From Chrysomallon squamiferum (Eukaryota; Animalia; Mollusca): DNA of 64,000 nucleotides. Both the position numbers and the translations under genes were made by a program. The first letter of the stretch is position 1. Each line of letters starts with the position of its first letter. The notes under the pieces are model-generated. The model saw only the letters and a list, made by a program, of their open reading frames with translations. It made no database searches and was not told where the DNA came from. The stretch is taken from positions 6,262,001 to 6,326,000 of the forward strand of contig CM022676.1 of NCBI GenBank assembly GCA_012295275.1, read 5' to 3'. Shown one piece after another: positions 1-48,215 of this stretch.

Positions 1-263
1 GTACTTCTACGATATGTACCATACATGAAGCCGAAGGATGTGTATAAAGGCTATAACTCCAGCCAAAGGCGTTAAAATAATTTCTAAGCTGCGGATCTCT
101 GTTCATGAAAAGATGGAGAAACCCTAACCCTGTACACTTTACAAAACCAATTTATTTCTTTACATTTTCTTTTATTTTGTCATTTATACATACTTTTTTT
201 ATTATTATTATTTAAAACACGTTACAAAAAATTGGTGGTTTTAAGGGGGCTGGAACGGATTAA
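1..263. mobile_element. Possible right end of a piggyBac-like non-autonomous element
   Basis: Ends GGCTGGAACGGA-TTAA (248-263), nearly the reverse complement of TTAA-CCCATTCCAGCC at 44219-44234; TTAA/CCC termini are piggyBac-type. Confidence 0.35.
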
Positions 264-592
264 TGGTATTTCTATTAATTTCATTTGGGAAAATGGATTT
301 GATATACGAGCAATCACGGAACGAATTAAACTCGTAAGTCAAGGTACCACTGTATGTGTGTGTGTGTGTGTGTTTGTGTGTGTGTGATATAGTATATATT
401 ATGATATTTATGATATACAAGATACAACATATATATAACGTATATGTATTTAGACACGCACATACATAATACACTTGTTTAATCACATGTAATAAAAAAA
501 TGTATGCTCTATTACTAAACACAATAACAGACAATTTGATGTCATTATCATATAATTTGTGTAGTAACTTTACACAATTGATGTTTGTTTAG

Positions 593-698
593 ATTTTCCG
601 TGGTGATGATGAAACAGAAGTGTGTGGACAAATTATAAAACACACAGATGTCGAGAATGAAATGAAAAATAATTTTACCGTGCAATGTAGGTTTATTA

Positions 699-754
<56 letters not shown>

Positions 755-1093
755 TTTATTTTAATTATTATTATTACTATCATGTATAATTAGATGTTAT
801 AAAGCTAAAAACACATTTTATATACTTCCTAGTCATTTTTTTTTTTTTTTTTTTTTTTTTTAATTAACATAAACTTTTCATAATAATAACGTATTATAGT
901 ATTGTTTTGTGATATTATAAAAAGAGGAATAAAAGCATAACATATTTCAGTTTTGTTTTGTGACATATATTTTTGAAGATATAAATGTAAATAAATGTTA
1001 AAACGAATTTTTGCTTTTAATGTAATTATTATAATCATTGATATCGATTGTGTATTTAGGTCATTTTATTTAGAATCAGTTTTTGTGGGCATC

Positions 1094-1147
<54 letters not shown>

Positions 1148-1234
1148 TTGGTTTCTGTCACCATGTCTTTCAACATTAATATATGTAGAAAGTTTTGCAA
1201 CATTCATCCTTTTTTTTCAACCTGCATTAGCCCC

Positions 1235-1273
<39 letters not shown>

Positions 1274-1463
1274 TGTCTATCTGTGTACATGCATTATTAT
1301 ATAAAATACACTGAATAGATTTTACGTATAACATATCCATTATTATTTTCTTCTATTATCAATTTCAGTTTCGCCTGGCTTGGACGTTTTCAGCAAAGTA
1401 ATTCTCCTTGGAGCAACGTTTCTCGTTGACTTCAACTACTTCGAAGACGACAAAACTCGTTGA
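593..1463 (+). CDS. PLSCR: Phospholipid scramblase paralog A, last two coding exons (593-686, 1369-1463); 5' exons lie outside the window
   Basis: AG/GT-bounded exons in phase: IFRGDDETEVCGQIIKHTDVENEMKNNFTVQ / FSPGLDVFSKVILLGATFLVDFNYFEDDKTR*. C-terminal K..LLGA.FL.DF..FE helix typical of scramblases; clearly homologous to the last two exons of the minus-strand copy. Confidence 0.88.
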
Positions 1464-7280: not shown

Positions 7281-7627
7281 GTTAAAAATTGTTTTTAAAA
7301 AAACAAAAAAACAAAAAACTTTAGAAAAATAAACATAAATTTATCCAAAAGTTCATTTATGATGGTGTCATCATGTTAATGTAACCAGTGGAGATGTATA
7401 ATTCAGTCAACAGCTTTGTACAAGACATTAAAACATTCATTTGTTGCCGCTGTATTCAAAGTTAAAAATTGTTTAAAAAAAAAAAAAAAAATAATAAAAA
7501 AAAATCTTTAGAAAAATAAAGCATATATTTATCCAAAAGTTTATTTATGATGTCATCATGGAGATGTATAATTCAGTCAACAGCTTTGTACAAGACATTA
7601 AAACATTCATTTGTTGCCGCTGTATTC
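7281..7627. repeat. ~175-bp tandem duplication of the scramblase B stop codon and proximal 3'UTR
   Basis: gagatgtataattcagtcaacagctttgtacaagacattaaaacattcatttgttgccgctgtattc is identical at 7391-7457 and 7561-7627. Confidence 0.93.
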
Positions 7628-7701
7628 GAAGTAGTTGAAGTCAATGAGAAATGTTGCTCCAAGGAGAATTGCTTTGGTCAGCACATCCATACCAGACGGA
7701 A
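7607..7701 (-). CDS. PLSCR: Scramblase B exon 6 (terminal)
   Basis: FPSGMDVLTKAILLGATFLIDFNYFEYSGNK*, cag acceptor. Confidence 0.92.
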
Positions 7702-8511: not shown

Positions 8512-11500
8512 GTAATAATAATAATAGTAATAGTAATAATAATAGTAATAATAGTAATAATAATAATCATAACTATAATAATAATAATAATAACTATAAT
8601 AATAATAGTAATAATAATAATAATAATAGTAATAATAATAACAATAATAATAATAATAATAATAATAATAACTATAATAACAATAATAATAATAATAACT
8701 ATAATAACAATAACAATAACAATAATGATAATGTTATTGTAGAATGTATTAAACTCACATCGCAGGGTGAAATCATTGGCCCCACCGAACACCTCCCTGC
8801 AGCCCCCCCAGTGTTTTATAATTTGTCCACTCTCTTCGGATTCATCATCACCACGGAAAATCTAAACAAACATCAATTACGTAAAGTTACTACACGTTAC
8901 ATAACATGATGTCAAATTGTCTTTTATTGTTTGTGTATTCAGTAATGTATGATATATTTATATATTACATATACATGATGAAACAATTATATTATGTATG
9001 TACCTGTGTATGTGCATGCACTTACACACACACACATATATTATATGCATAGCTTATTATGTAAGTATATATCAAGTATCATAAATCATACTGTATCTTG
9101 AGTATCACATACCATAAATATGACATATGTAATACACTCACGATATACAAATCTATACACACGAGATACATACATACATACATACATACATATATGTACA
9201 TATCAAGACTTGATGTTTCAAAAGATTTTAAATTTAAAAACTGACATCAGTTAATGCTTTTTCACTCTTTTACAAATGCATTTACTATTACAATCCTTTC
9301 TGACCATAAATCATTTTACCCCAAACTATTCTGTTTCCTTTTCTCAAAAACAAAAAAAAAAAAACTTGGATTAAAAATATTACTTTTTAAAATTATCATC
9401 CTTATTTTGGAAATGTAAATTACTGGCTTAATTCTAATGCTGTTTACCTTAAAAATAACATCGGCACAACATTTGCAATAACAGCACTCTCCAAGGATGG
9501 TAAAGAGAGGGGTTCCATTCATGTCGAATACTCTGTACCTAGGAGTCCAACATGTCCATCTGTAACAGACAACAACAAAATACTGAAGCCATGTACAGAT
9601 TTTGAATTACAAAACAGAATTTAAAAAAATATATATTTAAAATCTCTTATGTGATTATTTTTGGAAAAATCTGCTATGATAAACCATTCTGTAGGAGGAG
9701 ATTCAAGGCATTCACTTGGATTTTCTGGTTAACCAATTTTATTTGTTTATTTTGTTTATTTGTTTGTTTATTTGCTTATGTCTTTATTTCTTTATTATTT
9801 ATTTTATTTATTTATTTAGTGTGGGTTTTTTTAAAGCACAATTTGAATTACAAAGCACAATTTAAAAATAATAAAGTATTAAAATTCTAAATCTTTTATG
9901 TGATTATTTTTTTTAAAATTTATTACCCTCAGCCATTCTGTGGATGAGTAACAAGGCACTCACCATTTTTATTTATTTGTTAGTTTGTTTATTAGTATTT
10001 TTTATTTATTTATTTATTTATTTATTACAATTTAAAAAAAAAAAATGTATTAGTGTTTTGTTTTTTAATAATGAAATTACTTTTATCTTGAAAACGTTCC
10101 TCCATTTTGATTATTCTTAAAATCTCTCATCTAGACCAGATGTATGTGTATTTGCCAGAATGTTTTTAAAAACTAAATTTAGACAGCAGCCAAATATTTT
10201 TCCTGAAGCACAAACTAAATTTAGAAGCAGCCAAATATTTATTTTTTTGTTGTTTGAGTCATCATACATTATTTTAACAAGAAGTTACATATTAACTGCA
10301 AAGCATTGAAAAAAATTATGGAAAAAGAAGTTAAAACTTGTTCAAAGATTTATTTAATAACTGCAGAAATAAACTGTAGAATGCTGCCCATTTTAAGAAA
10401 ATCTCTGTCGTATTACAAGACATGGAGAGTAAGATATCACTGAATGAAGAAACAGGCACAGCAAAAACTTTTTCTTTTCAATTTCTATAAGCAAAATAAT
10501 ACAACTATAGTGTGTGTGTGTGTATGTGTGTGTGTGTGTCTTTATCAATATCTATAATTTATATATATATGGTTAATTATTATTATGCTTACATATTTTA
10601 TTAAGAATTATTTTATTTTTTTATTTTGTTAAAAAATGACTCACATTTGTTTGATGGTTGCTATGGGAACCCCGGCCGGTGAATGTATTTCCATTTCTTG
10701 AAGATAACAGCACCAGAACATGCTACCTTGGCAACGGAGTGGCCGATGCAGCTGGATTAAATTAACTCCTTCGTTGTCGGTGATGTTCATGACAAATGGC
10801 CGAAGTGTTCCACACATCTGTCGGGTACAACAGTCAGTGTCTGTAGAAAACAGAAATTAAGTGTCTGTACAAAACAGAAATCAGTGTCTGTACAAAACAG
10901 AAATCAGTGTCTGTAGAAAACAGAAATGAGTGTCTGTAGAAAACAGAAATGAGTGTCTGTACTAAACAGAAATCAGTGTCTGTACAAAACAGAAATGAGT
11001 GTTTGTACAAAACAGAAATCAAGTGTCTGTAGAAAACAGAAATCAGTGTCTGTAGAAAACAGAAATGAGTGTCTGTACAAAACAGAAATCAGTGTCTAGA
11101 AAACAGAAATCAGTGTCTGTACAAAACAGAAATGAATGTCTGTACAAAACAGAAATGAATGTCTGTACAAAACAGAAATCAGTGTCTGTACAAAACAGAA
11201 ATCAGTGTCTGTACAAAACAGAAATGAGTGTCTGTAGAAAACAGAAATCAGTGTCTGTAGAAAACAGAAATCAGTGTCTGTACAAAACAGAAATCAGTGT
11301 CTGTACAAAACAGAAATCAGTGTCTGTAGAAAACAGAAATCAGTGTCTGTAGAAAACAGAAATCAAGTGTCTGTAGAAAACAGAAATCAGTGTCTGTACA
11401 AAACAGAAATGAGTGTGTGTGCAAAACAGAAATGAGTGTCTGTACAAAACAGAAATCAAGTGTCTGTACAAAACAGAAATCAGTGTCTGTAGAAAACAGA

Positions 11501-13325
11501 AATCAGTGTCTGTACAAAACAGAAATGAGTGTCTGTAGAAAACAGAAATCAGTGTCTGTACAAAACAGAAATCAGTGTCTGTACAAAACAGAAATGAGTG
11601 TCTGTAGAAAACAGAAATCAGTGTCTGTACAAAACAGAAATGAGTGTCTGTACAAAATGATAGTTAACATGTCTGTAATTCAGAAAATCAGAAGTTTAGT
11701 GTGAACATAAAACAGAAATCAATGTTTTAGAAAAGTTAAGAAATTTAGTGTCTCAAATTTTAAATTTCAGTTAATTTTAAAAAAACAGAAATTTTATGAT
11801 TTGGATAACATAAAATTTAAATCAATGGACAGAACAGTTAACATAAAATTTAAATCTCAATGTTTTATAATTTCAGTTAACATAAAAAGTAATTCAGTGG
11901 TATTTCATAAGTTTGGATGAACATAAAATTTAAATCTCAGTGTTTTATAATTTTTAGTTAACAAGATTTAAATCTCACTATTTCATAATTTCACTTAACA
12001 TAAAATGTTATGATTTCATCATATGTTACTGAGACTTGGTTGACAGACATTTAGCTGAACAGACATTACATAACAATTAATATATTTTATTACAACTGAT
12101 GGGCAATACTAAATTTTTTGTAATCATGCAACTTGTGTGTTGTTGTAGCTTGTTTTTTTTATTTTTGTTTTATAAAGCAATAAAAAAAAAATAATTAAAT
12201 TAAATTTTTTTAAAAGAAAAGATAAATAAAATTAAGAGTGGCATAGGGCACATGTCTGTTCTGCTGATTGTCCATTTGGTCTAGTGTCCATTTCTGTTTG
12301 GTCATCTGTCTGGTCAAGGTTCATAATAAAGCTGTATTTTTACCTTCCTTTGCAAACATAAACTGCTGATCTGCACTGTTGCATATTCTGTATTTGTTGT
12401 TCTTCTCCCATCCTATCACAACTGTAAAAAATAATTTTGAAATAAATTTATATTAAATTGGTTAATGGTATGGAGCAGTTACAACAGAAATGTACCATAA
12501 ACGATTAATTTGATAGATCTCAATTCAAGAGATTTCAAATTTAGCAGAGAACAAAATTTACTACCGATTCTTTCTGCTGTTGGGCAATACTATCGATTTC
12601 GGCAAAGGCTCTTCAATGAGTTAAGAACAATATGTTTTAAATTTTTAATATTTAATATATATATAAAAAACAAAAAAAAACACAAATGAAATTAATAAAG
12701 AAAACTTTTTATTTTATCCTCTGACTAAGAATTAACTGGAAAGAGAATATAAATGTGTAATTAAAAATATTGCAAATCTATATAAATGCTCCTGTCTGCA
12801 GTTCAAGTATAGGAAATGTAAAAAATGTATTCACTTTGCTCCCAATGGAAAAACCAAGAGTGTTGTGTACCCTTCTATCTTGTAATGACCTCAAATTGAT
12901 TGTAGTAGATATATCTTATAAATACATTCTATTGTTTACTCACTAAAATTAGTTTTTTTATTATTCCATTTTTTTTAAAAAAAATTTAAAGAAGAAGAAG
13001 AAAAAAAGCCACCTTTTCTTACATATTTCTATGAAATGTAAAAGTAAAGAAAACAAATTTTGGAAGTCAATTTGATTTAATAACCATGATTAATTATGTG
13101 ATCTAAACTGTAAAATTATTATAAAATAATTCTGGTTTCTAAGTATTATTATAGATTTCAAAATGTATGTATAGTTATCTGAATACCACAAACAAAATAA
13201 TAATAAAATATTTATTTTTTAATGAGAATTTTATTTTTTATTTAAATTTGCATGATTTTCTCCTTTCTTTTGCTTTTTTTTTTTTTTTTTTTTTTTTTAG
13301 TTTTCTGTGTATATGTGTCTAACTA

Positions 13326-13360
<35 letters not shown>

Positions 13361-13597
13361 AGAATCACTATTACATAATGCAAGTAGACAGCCTCGACAT
13401 TCATGGTGTTTGGATAACTGCAAAACCAGAATCAAGACACGGTGAACAACCTTGACCTCGTTTTAAATTCCACTCCTGTTTATTTCTCCGTGTTTGTGTG
13501 TGTATGTGTGCATATACACACACACTCACAATTTTATAAATTGATATTTACTGTATTTTGTTTATTTCAATGGTTTTATATAAAAAGCAATCTAAAA

Positions 13598-13631
<34 letters not shown>

Positions 13632-14269
13632 TAATATATAACTGAAGAATAGTAAGAAAATAAATACCATTATCACTTTTATTTGCTTTGTAAGTTTACT
13701 GAATTATTTTGGAGGGATATGAATATATATGAATATCTGTGTGTATGCGCATACCCACACCGTCACACACACATCTTGAACGAAAGCAATTTTCTTTTTT
13801 TTTTACTGTATCCTGCATTCTTAACATTAACGATTATCGACAATCACTCGATTCACTGTAGTGCACCTGTGGCATACACGATATATTACACAGACAATGA
13901 GACATGGTAATTAGAATGCAATTTCTCTTTACCTTCAACTTTAACCTGTTTCTGTTACATTTACTATAAATTAACATAAATATATTACAACAATAATTTG
14001 TGAGCAAGTTGTTTTCTAATTTACCGCCGAGTATTCAACATAACATTTATTGCTTAACCCGCGTCAGTCACTGTCAAACGTGCTATTTATAGAATCTTAC
14101 CTTCGAGCAGCTCTAGTTGTTGATGTACCCGAACCTCTTCAATCGCACCAAGGTACGCCAGACCGGGAGGCAATCCCGCTGGAACTACAGCCGTGGGAGG
14201 TGGTGCCTGCATCATCCCGAACTGCTGTCCCTTTTCCCCAGCTTGCGGTTGAGTTGCAATAGCTGACAT
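7607..14269 (-). CDS. PLSCR: Phospholipid scramblase paralog B, complete 6-exon CDS, 250 aa
   Basis: Exons 14269-14101, 12421-12344, 10840-10645, 9559-9448, 8861-8759 and 7701-7607 sum to 753 nt with consistent phases and GT-AG introns. Motifs PPGLAYL, HQQLELLE, GWEKNNKY, EDTDCCTRQMCG.LRPF, RPLRC...WCC.LQEMEI.SP.G and KAILLGATFLIDFNYFE match the PLSCR family. Confidence 0.95.
8385..8732. repeat. Long imperfect (AAT)n trinucleotide microsatellite
   Basis: About 115 triplets AAT/AAC/AGT/ACT in scramblase B intron 5; the paralogous intron has a shorter (ATT)n at 695-785. Confidence 0.95.
8759..8861 (-). CDS. PLSCR: Scramblase B exon 5
   Basis: IFRGDDESEESGQIIKHWGGCREVFGGANDFTLR, tag/gtgagt. 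Confidence 0.92.
9448..9559 (-). CDS. PLSCR: Scramblase B exon 4
   Basis: WTCWTPRYRVFDMNGTPLFTILGECCYCKCCADVIFK, cag/gtaaac. Confidence 0.92.
9595..9970. repeat. Diverged ~250-bp tandem duplication in scramblase intron 3
   Basis: tttgaattacaaa..aatttaaaaa..aaatct.ttatgtgattatttt..ccattctgt..caaggca.tcac occurs at ~9600-9720 and ~9840-9965. Confidence 0.75.
10645..10840 (-). CDS. PLSCR: Scramblase B exon 3
   Basis: DTDCCTRQMCGTLRPFVMNITDN...RPLRCQGSMFWCCYLQEMEIHSPAGVPIATIKQI, cag/gtgagt. Confidence 0.93.
10834..11657. repeat. 23-bp minisatellite (~35 copies) derived from the scramblase exon 3 acceptor junction
   Basis: Unit T(C/G)AGTGTCTGTA(C/G)AAAACAGAAA; its reverse complement TTTCTGTTTT(G/C)TACAG|ACACT(G/C)A equals the intron/exon boundary at 10841/10840. 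Confidence 0.97.
11760..12005. repeat. Degenerate ~40-bp minisatellite
   Basis: Recurrent acataaaatttaaatctca.tgttttataatttcagtta. Confidence 0.75.
12344..12421 (-). CDS. PLSCR: Scramblase B exon 2
   Basis: VVIGWEKNNKYRICNSADQQFMFAKE, cag/gtaaaa. Confidence 0.92.
14101..14269 (-). CDS. PLSCR: Scramblase B exon 1
   Basis: MSAIATQPQ...PPGLAYLGAIEEVRVHQQLELLE, donor gtaaga. Confidence 0.92.
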
Positions 14270-14470
14270 GTCGGATTTTGAAAGATTTTTTTTTTTTCTG
14301 TCTTCAACGCTTCTTTGTCGTCCTCCTAACTAACACCCGAAAAAATCTTACAGTTGCGCGCGCATTTCCAGTGGTCCTGTCCGCTAGGTGGCTGATCAAG
14401 TTATGCAGAAAGGGGGGGGGGGAAGAGAGGGAAAGGGAGAGGTTGAGCGTAATTACGTGTGCACCAAAAT
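14270..14470 (-). promoter_or_regulatory. 5'UTR/promoter of scramblase B
   Basis: CpG-rich island-like stretch (GCGCGCGC, TTACGTG, G/purine tract) directly upstream of the ATG in an otherwise CpG-poor region. Confidence 0.5.
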
Positions 14471-15255: not shown

Positions 15256-15570
15256 TGTGTTTATACATTACCAAAACTATACACGATGAATTCTGGGACA
15301 TTAGAAATACATAAAATAAGTAATAATAATAATAATAATAATGGAAAAATATAACTAAATTCCTGCAAAAAGTTTGGAATGAATGACATGGCAAAAGCAA
15401 ACTCTGCTTTGTACTGAAACAAAATTAGCATACACTGCACTGAAAAAAAAAAAAAAAAAAAAAGAAGATATTTATACACAATATTCTACATCATTCACTT
15501 CCTTCGTAGACTACAAAACTACAAACTAAACATCTTTATAAATATATATACACAGTTATGGCATTCGTTG
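15256..15570 (+). repeat. Dispersed direct copy of 21740-22051 (downstream/3'UTR region of ABCG)
   Basis: Near-identical ~310 bp from tgtgtttatacattaccaaaactatacacgatgaattctgggac to tatggcattcgttg. Confidence 0.95.
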
Positions 15571-17018
15571 AAAATACCCGGGCAGTGTACAGACTGAAAG
15601 GTAAACAAGCAGACGACAGACATGTATGTGCAGAAAGATATATAACTGTGCAGATTATCAAAGCCTTAAGCTCCTAAAGGTTCGTTAATAATCTCAGATC
15701 ATGTGATACCGAGATATATTCAGTGATGACGTAACCACTTAATAATGGCTCTCCGTGTCTAAAGACTAAATATAGCTCAAAGCAATGTAGATATGGTTGC
15801 ATTGCATTACATTGATAATATCTCTATTTTTTCTTCATTCACCGTAATCAGCACAGTCTATACCTGTTCCCCTATCTTTAAAATCATAGAAAAGGTGAAA
15901 ATAATAATGGAAATAGAGAAAAAAAAAAAAATAATAATAATAATAGAGAAATAAAAGAAAAAAGAACTAGAGATGAAAAAGTATAAAAAATAAAAAAAAA
16001 AAAAAAAAAATAAAATAAAAAATGTTAAGAACGACTAATAAGAAAGTGATAAAAATAGAAAAAAAATCTGTAAGAAAGTAACATAGAGTAAAGAAAAACT
16101 AAAAATTTTTTTAAAAAATAGAGAAATAGAAAAGAAAAAGTGAAAGAAAACGAACGAAAAAAAAAATAATGAACGGAAAAATAAAGTTAGAATAGAAAAG
16201 AAACGAAAGGAAAGAATTAAATAAAAATGAGAAAATTAAAACAAAGAAAAATGTGAGATTTTTTTTTTTTTTTTTTAAAAGAAAACGAAATGAAATAAAA
16301 GGATATGAAAGTACCTCACTATAAACAAAAATATATGTAGAGGTTATGACAATAAATGGCGGACAGGTAGAAATACAGTTGTAATAATAAACATATGAGA
16401 TGACAGCTATTCTCGTAACAGTCGGAGGAATCGAAAAACACTTTTCTTAATTTACAACAAACACTCAAAACCAGACATGCTGCTAAGTATGTTTCATTGT
16501 TTGTCACTGATTGACAACTGTGAGCATCTCAAACGATTCCTATTCAAGATGGCGGACGCGCGATTTAAATATCCTAAACACGGTATGAAAGGTTAATTAC
16601 TTGCTAATACCAAATAATTATTCTCAGAAACACGTCAAATAAAATAAAATAAAATACTACACTCAGTGGCGTGCAGATTGTATGTCCCAAAGACTCAAGT
16701 ATACGGCCTAGTACCGAGAAATATTACGAGAATGGAAGAGATTTTGAATATATAAACACAGATGTTACATAAAATAAACCCTTTATTCGATTTAAATGTA
16801 AATCAACCAAATTTATTAAGTTCTTTTCTCTGATCGGATGCTCCCCCTATCTGGATGCATGGGGCACCGCCCTTTCGCCATCCCCCCTCTGCACAGACTA
16901 CACTACGAAAGGAGAGCGAGACTATTACATCGCAGTCACGTATACCTTGTATTATATATCTTTCTGCGCGTTCATTTCTGTCGTCTGCTTGTTTACCTTT
17001 CAGTCTGCCCGGGTATTT
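15571..17018. repeat. ~70-bp inverted repeat pair (15571-15645 / 16952-17018)
   Basis: aaatacccgggcag..actgaaaggtaaacaagcagacgacaga..gcagaaagatatataa and its reverse complement. Confidence 0.9.
16664..16896. mobile_element. hAT-like non-autonomous element (MITE), 233 bp
   Basis: Starts CAGTGGCGTGCAG, ends ...CTGCACAG (right TIR partly eroded), GC-rich subterminal GGGGCACCGCCC; flanked by an identical 8-bp ACTACACT (16656-16663, 16897-16904), consistent with an hAT target-site duplication. Confidence 0.62.
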
Positions 17019-17972
17019 CTTACAGTAACCTCTTTTTTTGTTTTTTCTTTTTTTTTTTGTTTGAAAACGATATCACTTTATTTTTTTTGTTATTCGTTTT
17101 CTTTTCAATGTCAAAAGCGATGTTTGCTCATCTTTTCTTATCTAGCGTTTCACATTGGTTATGACGTTAGGTAACAGTTCATTCCAGTCTCGTTAATGTT
17201 TTTAGTACTGGTACTATCAATAAAAATACCTCCAAACCTAAGATAATGAGAGCAAAAACACATTATTATTATTATTATTATGTTTTTATTTTTCTGTAAA
17301 CTTTTTTTTAATCATCATTGTTTTTTGTTTTTTTTATGTTTATTTGTCATGGTTGAGACTAACCATAATACATTTTTTTTTTTTATACATCCAAGTGATT
17401 ATATTTGTTTTATTTACTTTTTTTTTTGTTGTTGTTGTTTTTTAGCAATGGACTTCTGACATCAGAATAAACAGTACAAGTGATCATTTTATTATTTTAG
17501 AAAGTTTACATGTAATGGAAATATTAAACAGAAATAATTTTATATCTGATAGTTTGTTCTGTAGACCAAATTTAACTAATGAATTAAAATATTAAAATAA
17601 AATAGATAGTTCTTAATTGTTTGTCTGTATTTGATTATTTATTCATAGTATTTAAGTTAAAATTAGGAATTAATAATACAATTTTTATGAAATAAATGAT
17701 TAAATGAAAGGTGCAATTTTTTTTGTTTTTTTGTTTTTGTTTCAGAGGATGTGGTATGATGGTATATAAAAATGAGGAAATTTCTTCTTGCAAAATATTT
17801 ATTAATTTTTGGGGGATCGAAGCAGTATAAAATAAAAATAATGAGAAAATGATTTCTTGCTAAATATTCACAAAACAATAATGTAATGAAATATGCACTC
17901 ACTGATACAGTAGAATCCAGAGTTTTATTTTCAGTTAATCAGATGCATAAATTTACAAAAAATAAATTAATA

Positions 17973-27753: not shown

Positions 27754-48215
<20,462 letters not shown>

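What the first reader, a model, noticed from the sequence alone, without database searches (positions are those of the whole stretch)
10834..11657. Minisatellite made of ~35 complete 3' splice sites stacked in front of scramblase exon 3; every decoy is non-productive
Seen: the 23-bp unit read on the transcribed (-) strand is ACACT(G/C)A-TTTCTGTTTT(G/C)TACAG, i.e. the first 7 nt of exon 3 plus the polypyrimidine tract and CAG of its own acceptor. In units with the G variant, CACTGAT fits the branch-point consensus YNYTRAY about 17 nt before the next AG, so these units are self-contained branch point/polypyrimidine/AG modules. The true acceptor alone carries a variant (ACTTAAT). The nearest upstream AG (junction 10864) is 24 nt away and in frame but reads GAC ACT TAA, so every in-frame decoy hits a stop and all others frameshift. 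Established: 3' splice-site choice normally favours the first AG after a branch point, and premature stops trigger NMD. Inference: either the spliceosome bypasses ~35 near-identical acceptors, or the array works as a copy-number-tunable poison-splicing rheostat or U2AF/SF1 sink.
Basis: partly seen in the sequence, partly recalled or inferred. Interest (0 to 1): 0.8.

Follow-up and report, generated by a model that had tools for sequence, protein, structure and literature searches.

The report
Silent splice-acceptor "mirage" in snail scramblase
In a snail scramblase gene, a 23-base piece spanning the end of an intron and the start of the next exon is repeated 35 times, yet the main transcript in all four transcript data sets examined splices only to the last, normal site, so this is likely a tolerated repeat of a type already described in lancelets ("mirage") rather than a splicing switch.

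Summary
The array is real: 35 units (10841-11647, minus strand) of the last 16 intron bases plus the first 7 bases of exon 3 of an intact phospholipid scramblase gene (closest named relative Gigantopelta aegis, 216 of 249 residues identical). It puts 34 decoy AGs before the authentic acceptor at 10840; all 34 would give premature stops. In 4 of 4 transcript runs (two studies) the one contig leaving exon 2 joins 10840; no decoy junction is shown, though contigs drop rare forms. Three DNA runs (three studies) hold many unit copies, so it is no assembly artefact. "Every decoy non-productive" arises in 68% of random unit orders and is no sign of design. Tandem copies of intron-exon borders that leave splicing intact are published as amphioxus "mirages"; human F7 and CBS are close parallels. 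This scan has noted the same class on other DNA (41 notes, at least 13 genomes; unchecked AI notes). Best reading: a tolerated minisatellite in which the site nearest the intact exon likely wins by exon definition. The rheostat idea is unsupported but not excluded at low levels. Interest 0.2.

The parts
10841..11647 (-). Minisatellite of 35 units (30 x 23 bp, 4 x 24 bp, 1 x 21 bp); unit = exon-3 head (7 nt) + last 16 nt of intron 2; 34 decoy AGs from 11647 to 10864
10841..10864 (-). Terminal 24-bp unit carrying the authentic acceptor, with the only TTAAT branch-like variant (branch A at -17, predicted)
   Evidence: use of this acceptor shown
10645..10840 (-). Scramblase exon 3 (196 nt); its first 7 nt (10834-10840) continue the repeat register
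   Evidence: Pfam PF03803, E 6.2e-16; junction 12344 to 10840 in 4 of 4 runs
12344..12421 (-). Exon 2 (78 nt); donor after 12344
   Evidence: (joints and loose ends)
14101..14269 (-). Exon 1, coding part (169 nt from ATG)
   Evidence: joint 12421/14101 in 4 of 4 runs
9448..9559 (-). Exon 4 (112 nt, predicted borders)
   Evidence: GT-AG borders and open frame; alignment to relatives
8759..8861 (-). Exon 5 (103 nt, predicted borders)
7607..7701 (-). Exon 6, coding part with stop (95 nt)
   Evidence: Pfam PF03803, E 2.8e-6
11648..12060 (-). Older, degenerate AT-rich repeat (period about 38 at 11835-12006) that shares words with the 23-bp unit and grades into it
   Evidence: a common origin is inferred

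Best explanation
This is a minisatellite built from the intron-2/exon-3 border of an intact snail scramblase gene, and the main mRNA splices past all 34 decoy AGs to the last one; it is likely a tolerated, unselected repeat of the 'mirage' type, and the last site likely wins because it alone is followed by the whole exon and lies nearest exon 3's donor. Shown: the anatomy, the intact 250-residue frame, use of 10840 in the main contig of four runs, and many unit copies in three DNA runs. Inferred origin: slippage or unequal crossover seeded by the short direct repeat formed by the exon start and the look-alike word 24 nt upstream, followed by ordinary minisatellite turnover. Inferred site choice (about 0.6 on its own): splice sites are paired across the exon, so U2AF/U2 are committed at the acceptor next to exon 3's own sequence and 196 nt from its donor, while decoys are followed by only 7 exon bases and then more repeat. 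The TTAAT branch variant may add a small edge. Inferred clean-up: any rare decoy product carries an early stop and would be removed by NMD, which lets the array persist without being a regulator.
For:: in X6, X8 (study P2, on record as RNA) and X7, X9 (study P1, labelled 'DNA?' but spliced) a single contig per run leaves exon 2 at 12344, and its next 30 letters are 10840-10811 (exact in X8 and X9, one difference each in X6 and X7); depths 24.7, 166.5, 137.8, 52.9. A four-difference variant path at 14150-14276 is kept beside the main path in X7 (42.8 against 116.3) and X8, so a form at roughly a quarter of the depth survives contig cleaning; open 250-residue frame with GT-AG introns; 5 of 5 relatives align without gaps within 15 residues of the exon 2/3 junction; over three units X1, X2 and X4 stack depth of 4434, 814 and 5945 against 7-67 for single exon contigs; my simulation gives about 126-fold for the window's 35 units, 67-fold for 20 and 20-fold for 10, so each run holds roughly 20 or more units (rough: summed depth is not a copy number, and X1 may be the window's source); no productive decoy in 68% of shuffles; decoys as good as the authentic site from -16 to +7 exist (6 of 34), so local sequence does not explain the choice and position must matter; those six would make exons of 266-842 nt. 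Published parallels (passages read): PMC3087553, PMC3902484, PMC2630376 (distal copy of a duplicated CBS intron 7/exon 8 junction is favoured), PMC1557585 (site nearest the exon wins in F7 and moving it away promotes skipping).
Against: Contigs drop rare forms and NMD would deplete decoy products, so low-level decoy use is untested; 68 loose-end rows were not shown. The RNA individuals were not shown to carry the array (DNA runs of the same two studies do). In some human donor-side arrays (6-16, CBS intron 13) the two nearest pseudo-sites are used (PMC1557585), so leakage at 10864 or 10887 is plausible. The 321-nt stretch over the last units and exon start folds better than shuffles (z -3.7, 0 of 100), so structure may play a part. 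The exon-definition step was not tested; I have no enhancer map for molluscs (GAA occurs 5 times in exon 3 and 0 times in the array, suggestive only).
Confidence: 0.8

Rival explanations
1. Copy-number rheostat: a minority of transcripts use decoy AGs or skip exon 3, are destroyed by NMD, and array length tunes scramblase output; the array is kept for that effect.
For: 34 of 34 decoys are non-productive; 21 of 34 have a branch-like motif; many units are present in three DNA runs; human donor-side arrays leak at the nearest pseudo-sites (PMC1557585), and tandem repeats near splice sites are associated with splicing levels in humans (PMC10078293, passages).
Against: No decoy junction is shown in 4 of 4 runs; non-productivity is the default (68% of shuffles); two units have lost their AG; nothing links length to expression.
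Confidence: 0.1
2. The array is silent, but the choice is made by local features rather than position: the unique TTAAT branch variant with the C-type pyrimidine tract is the strongest site, and the repeated stems hide the decoys.
For: TTAAT occurs in 1 of 35 units, the used one; the region folds better than shuffles (z -3.7); PMC3087553 notes that border units escape homogenisation.
Against: Predicted unpaired probability of the authentic AG is 0.02, the same as nearly all decoys (0.00-0.04 in 32 of 34), so folding does not single it out. A unique border unit is expected from repeat turnover alone. 2 of the 9 window acceptors I tabulated show no such motif within 45 nt, so the motif is not required.
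Confidence: 0.07
3. Assembly artefact, or a dead gene copy in which splicing does not matter.
For: Repeat arrays can be mis-assembled; no raw long reads were available; no listed contig spans the array.
Against: Units vary in an interspersed pattern; three DNA runs from three studies hold many copies, and an X1 contig runs from exon 3 into the last units, 10687-10869; the gene has an open frame and spliced transcripts.
Confidence: 0.03

Closest known systems
Amphioxus 'mirage' minisatellites (Adh3, globins BflGb6/BflGb9, troponin C, PGBD5); PMC3087553 and PMC3902484, passages read
   Same: Tandem copies of an intron-exon border (BflGb6: intron 3' end plus exon 5' part); many but not all units keep the AG; regular splicing is undisturbed; unit length within the 10-72 bp range given for Adh3; border unit distinct from the homogenised interior.
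   Different: Gastropod rather than cephalochordate; very short exon head (7 nt); 35 units against 3-6 in BflGb6; length instability is shown there and only hinted at here.
Human CBS 844ins68 (PMC2630376, passages read)
   Same: Duplicated intron/exon acceptor junction; the distal copy is strongly favoured and the mRNA is normal.
   Different: One 68-bp duplication, not a 35-unit minisatellite. The primary paper on its mechanism (Romano 2002) was not held and I saw only its reference entry.
Human F7 intron-7 37-bp VNTR and related donor-side arrays (6-16, CBS intron 13, LAMIN B2, PDGF); PMC1557585, passages and Discussion read
   Same: Minisatellite whose border unit spans the splice site; identical pseudo-sites stay silent and the site nearest the exon wins; neither folding nor stop avoidance explained the choice there.
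   Different: Donor side rather than acceptor side; tested by minigenes in mammalian cells; in 6-16 and CBS the two nearest pseudo-sites are also used.

Membership tests
Mirage minisatellite | Tandem repeat whose unit spans an intron-exon boundary of the host gene | tested here: met
   Unit = 16 nt intron end + 7 nt exon head; register runs to 10834, chance about 4e-5
Mirage minisatellite | Many but not all units keep the splice signal | tested here: met
   33 of 35 units end in AG
Mirage minisatellite | Regular splicing of the mRNA is not disturbed | tested here: met
   Main contig uses 10840 in 4 of 4 runs; rare forms not visible in contigs
Mirage minisatellite | Length instability between alleles or cells | tested here: inconclusive
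   Stacked-depth ratios differ between runs (about 66-83 in X1, 110 in X2, 140-250 in X4, against 126 simulated for the window allele), and X1 and X2 show a unit variant at 10874 absent from the window's array; summed contig depth is not a copy number and other loci could contribute
Mirage minisatellite | Homogenised interior with a distinct border unit | tested here: met
   Interior units differ mainly at two columns; the terminal 24-bp unit is unique and the upstream end decays
Poison-splicing (AS-NMD) regulator | Unproductive isoform is actually made and rises under NMD block | not testable with these tools
   Only contigs were served; none shows a decoy junction
Poison-splicing (AS-NMD) regulator | Non-productive frame beyond chance expectation | tested here: not met
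   68% of shuffled unit orders also give no productive decoy
Recursive splice sites | AG immediately followed by a regenerated GT donor | tested here: not met
   0 AGGT and 0 GTRAG in the 807-nt array
Phospholipid scramblase (PF03803) host gene | Pfam match above cut-off and full-length intact frame | tested here: met
   Exons 3 and 6 pass the curated cut-off, exon 1 gave no hit; 250 residues, 216 of 249 identical to P0001

The most novel reading that the evidence does not exclude
The array is a heritable volume knob: each extra acceptor unit diverts a small share of scramblase transcripts into NMD or exon skipping, so array length sets expression, and acceptor mirages, which this scan keeps noting across animal phyla, form an overlooked class of copy-number splicing regulators.
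Probability: 0.08. Interest if true: 0.7.

Novelty: new member of a known kind. Interest (0 to 1): 0.2.

Why it matters
As it stands it extends amphioxus-type mirages to a gastropod (two literature searches, listed no mollusc case; subscription journals are mostly not held). It is also a compact natural substrate for asking how a 3' splice site is chosen: six decoys match the used site letter for letter from -16 to +7, yet the last site is the one seen. If length-dependent leakage were shown, it would be a simple mutable expression control; nothing here shows that.

Tried and rejected
RNA structure as the selector: local folding buries the authentic AG as much as the decoys, so rejected as the main cause. 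Selection for stops: rejected by unit shuffling and by swapping the last unit (6 of 10 AG-ending unit types in last place also give no productive decoy). Recursive splicing: no AG-GT sites. Dispersed repeat family within the window: no other copy of the unit at up to 4 errors. Paralog A's acceptor: outside the window. In one search one X4 contig (278 nt, 16 differences over 10686-10814, depth 40) looks like a paralogous exon 3 that goes on for 149 letters with no listed piece or joint on the units, but 183 pieces and 75 loose ends were not shown, so this is no evidence of absence. Run X10 (organism B) has an exon-3-like contig (19 differences over 10639-10754) and no cover on the units; lack of cover proves nothing. 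No whole genome was held, so no genome-wide count of such arrays. No raw reads were served, so decoy use could not be quantified, and no read set was laid across the whole array. Literature: searches gave listings of little use; PMC5628181 is an unrelated intronic marker; PMC2115697 gave only the reference entry of Reed and Maniatis 1986, whose content I did not see. Earlier notes near this place or on look-alike DNA: none. No supplements were read; Additional file 4 of PMC3087553 holds the BflGb6 alignment and could refine the comparison.

Full report
1. Observation. Tandem Repeats Finder reports 10834-11657, period 23, 35.7 copies, 92% matches. Read on the minus strand, 11647-10841 splits into 35 units: 30 of 23 bp, 4 of 24 bp and 1 of 21 bp. 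The commonest unit is ACACTGATTTCTGTTTTGTACAG; interior units vary mostly at two columns. 33 of 35 units end in AG, and 19 of 35 begin with the exact first 7 nt of exon 3. The repeat register continues 7 nt into the exon, which has a chance of about 4e-5 at window composition, so the unit really spans the border. Upstream the array decays into an older AT-rich repeat reaching about 12060. No other copy of the unit lies in the window at up to 4 errors.

2. Host gene. Six exons (14269-14101, 12421-12344, 10840-10645, 9559-9448, 8861-8759, 7701-7607) with five GT-AG introns give an open frame of 250 residues. Exons 3 and 6 match Pfam Scramblase above its cut-off; exon 1 gave no hit. A search with exon 3 returned 5 proteins among 6 candidates, the best a Gigantopelta aegis scramblase at 89%. 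Full-length identity to it is 216 of 249, and 5 of 5 relatives align without gaps around the exon 2/3 junction. The organism is therefore likely a gastropod, and 10840 is the conserved acceptor.

3. Decoys. Between 11647 and 10864 lie 34 AGs, all YAG. 11 are in frame, and all 34 meet a stop within 305 nt, upstream of later exon junctions. 21 of 34 have a branch-like YTRAY about 17 nt upstream. 6 of 34 equal the authentic site from -16 to +7, four of them with the branch-like motif. A 23-bp unit cycles through all frames and most units carry a TGA. The TAA of the last unit is not needed as a stop, since the other three 24-bp units read TGA in that frame, and 10 of 11 in-frame decoys stop before reaching it.

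4. Which site is used. Eleven runs were listed, all kept as contigs. I laid 4 of them on 11660-14400: X6 and X8 (on record as RNA, study P2) and X7 and X9 (labelled 'DNA?', study P1, but spliced). In 4 of 4 a contig joins exon 1 to exon 2 across the 1679-nt intron, and one contig per run leaves exon 2 at 12344 with 30 letters that are 10840-10811, exactly in two runs and with one difference in the other two. Contig lengths fit exons 3-6 in one piece (510 letters beyond exon 2 against 506 predicted). A variant path in exon 1 at 42.8 against 116.3 depth is kept in X7, so an isoform at about a quarter of the depth would have been visible. Rarer forms, especially NMD targets, would not; 68 loose-end rows were cut from the output.

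5. Is the array real and shared? I laid 4 other runs on exon 3 plus three units. X1, X2 and X4 (organism A, three studies; X1 may be the window's own source) stack depth of 4434, 814 and 5945 on the units against 7-67 for single exon contigs. Simulated 31-mer contigs give peaks of about 5, 9, 20, 67, 152 and 312 for resampled arrays of 3, 5, 10, 20, 34 and 70 units, and 126 for the window's allele. All three runs thus hold roughly 20 or more units; this is rough, as summed depth is not a copy number and similar units elsewhere could add. One X1 contig runs from exon 3 into the terminal units (10687-10869). A unit variant seen in X1 and X2 is absent from the window's array, hinting at allelic turnover. 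An artefact is unlikely.

6. How it most likely works. Shown: anatomy, intact gene, main use of 10840, presence in several data sets. Inferred: the array arose by slippage or unequal crossover at the border and turns over like any minisatellite. Local sequence cannot explain the choice, since six decoys are identical over the core. Folding cannot either: the predicted unpaired probability of the authentic AG is 0.02, like nearly all decoys, although the stretch folds better than shuffles (z -3.7). What is unique to 10840 is position (196 nt from exon 3's donor, followed by the full exon) and the TTAAT variant. I favour exon definition and exon-adjacent enhancement (established concept, recalled; about 0.6), with the branch variant as a possible helper. 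The 'first AG' rule concerns the step after branch-point choice (recalled), and 10840 is the first AG after its own branch-like motif. Recursive splicing is excluded by the lack of AG-GT sites. NMD would remove rare errors, which explains tolerance without implying regulation.

7. Comparison. An earlier-findings search returned 41 notes in at least 13 genomes holding my search words; the 8 shown describe acceptor arrays in annelids, sea urchins, a cartilaginous fish and other animals. They are unchecked AI notes and count as leads only; they gave me the term 'mirage' and two papers, which I read in passages. [quoted passage not shown] PMC3902484 adds troponin C and PGBD5. PMC1557585 shows for the donor-side F7 VNTR that identical pseudo-sites are functional but outcompeted by the site nearest the exon, that neither folding nor stop avoidance explains it, and that two other human arrays leak at the nearest pseudo-sites. 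PMC2630376 states that the distal copy of the duplicated CBS intron 7/exon 8 junction is strongly favoured. The array meets four of five mirage features tested, with length instability inconclusive. Searches for a mollusc case listed none, within a library that lacks most subscription journals.

8. Verdict. New member of a known kind; confidence 0.8 in a tolerated, silent mirage; probability 0.08 for a length-tuned regulator; interest 0.2.

Noticed in passing
window 1-1461 (+ strand): Exons 5 (593-686, 9 nt shorter and diverged in its second half) and 6 (from 1369) of a second scramblase, tail to tail with the gene studied; introns and 3' regions are visibly homologous. Its exons 1-4 lie left of the window.
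   Followed up: partly
window 7389-7462 and 7559-7632: A 74-nt piece holding the last codons, stop codon and start of the 3' UTR is duplicated 170 nt apart at 99% identity, within a longer local duplication: a second tandem duplication at a feature border in the same gene.
   Followed up: partly
window 41849-42078 (- strand): A degenerate 16/33-bp repeat ends right at the acceptor (41846) of an exon of the ABCG/white-like gene (name from my reading of the frames, no family search). Its units carry no exon head and only 1 AG in 230 nt, giving a 221-nt AG-free zone: the opposite case to the scramblase array.
   Followed up: partly
window 14150-14276: Runs X7 and X8 hold a second form of exon 1 with four differences at substantial depth: an allele or a very close gene copy.
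   Followed up: no
window 10562-10715: All three organism-A DNA runs hold a second sequence about 94% like the end of exon 3 and start of intron 3, at single-copy depth and with the same differences: likely a close paralog, possibly partly homogenised by gene conversion.
   Followed up: no
window 28786-29802: A 198-bp period repeat of about 4.8 copies at 91% matches inside an intron of the ABCG-like gene.
   Followed up: no
window 15540-15670 and 16900-17030: Two similar stretches of about 130 nt upstream of the scramblase gene (seen), perhaps a small dispersed repeat or transposon end.
   Followed up: no
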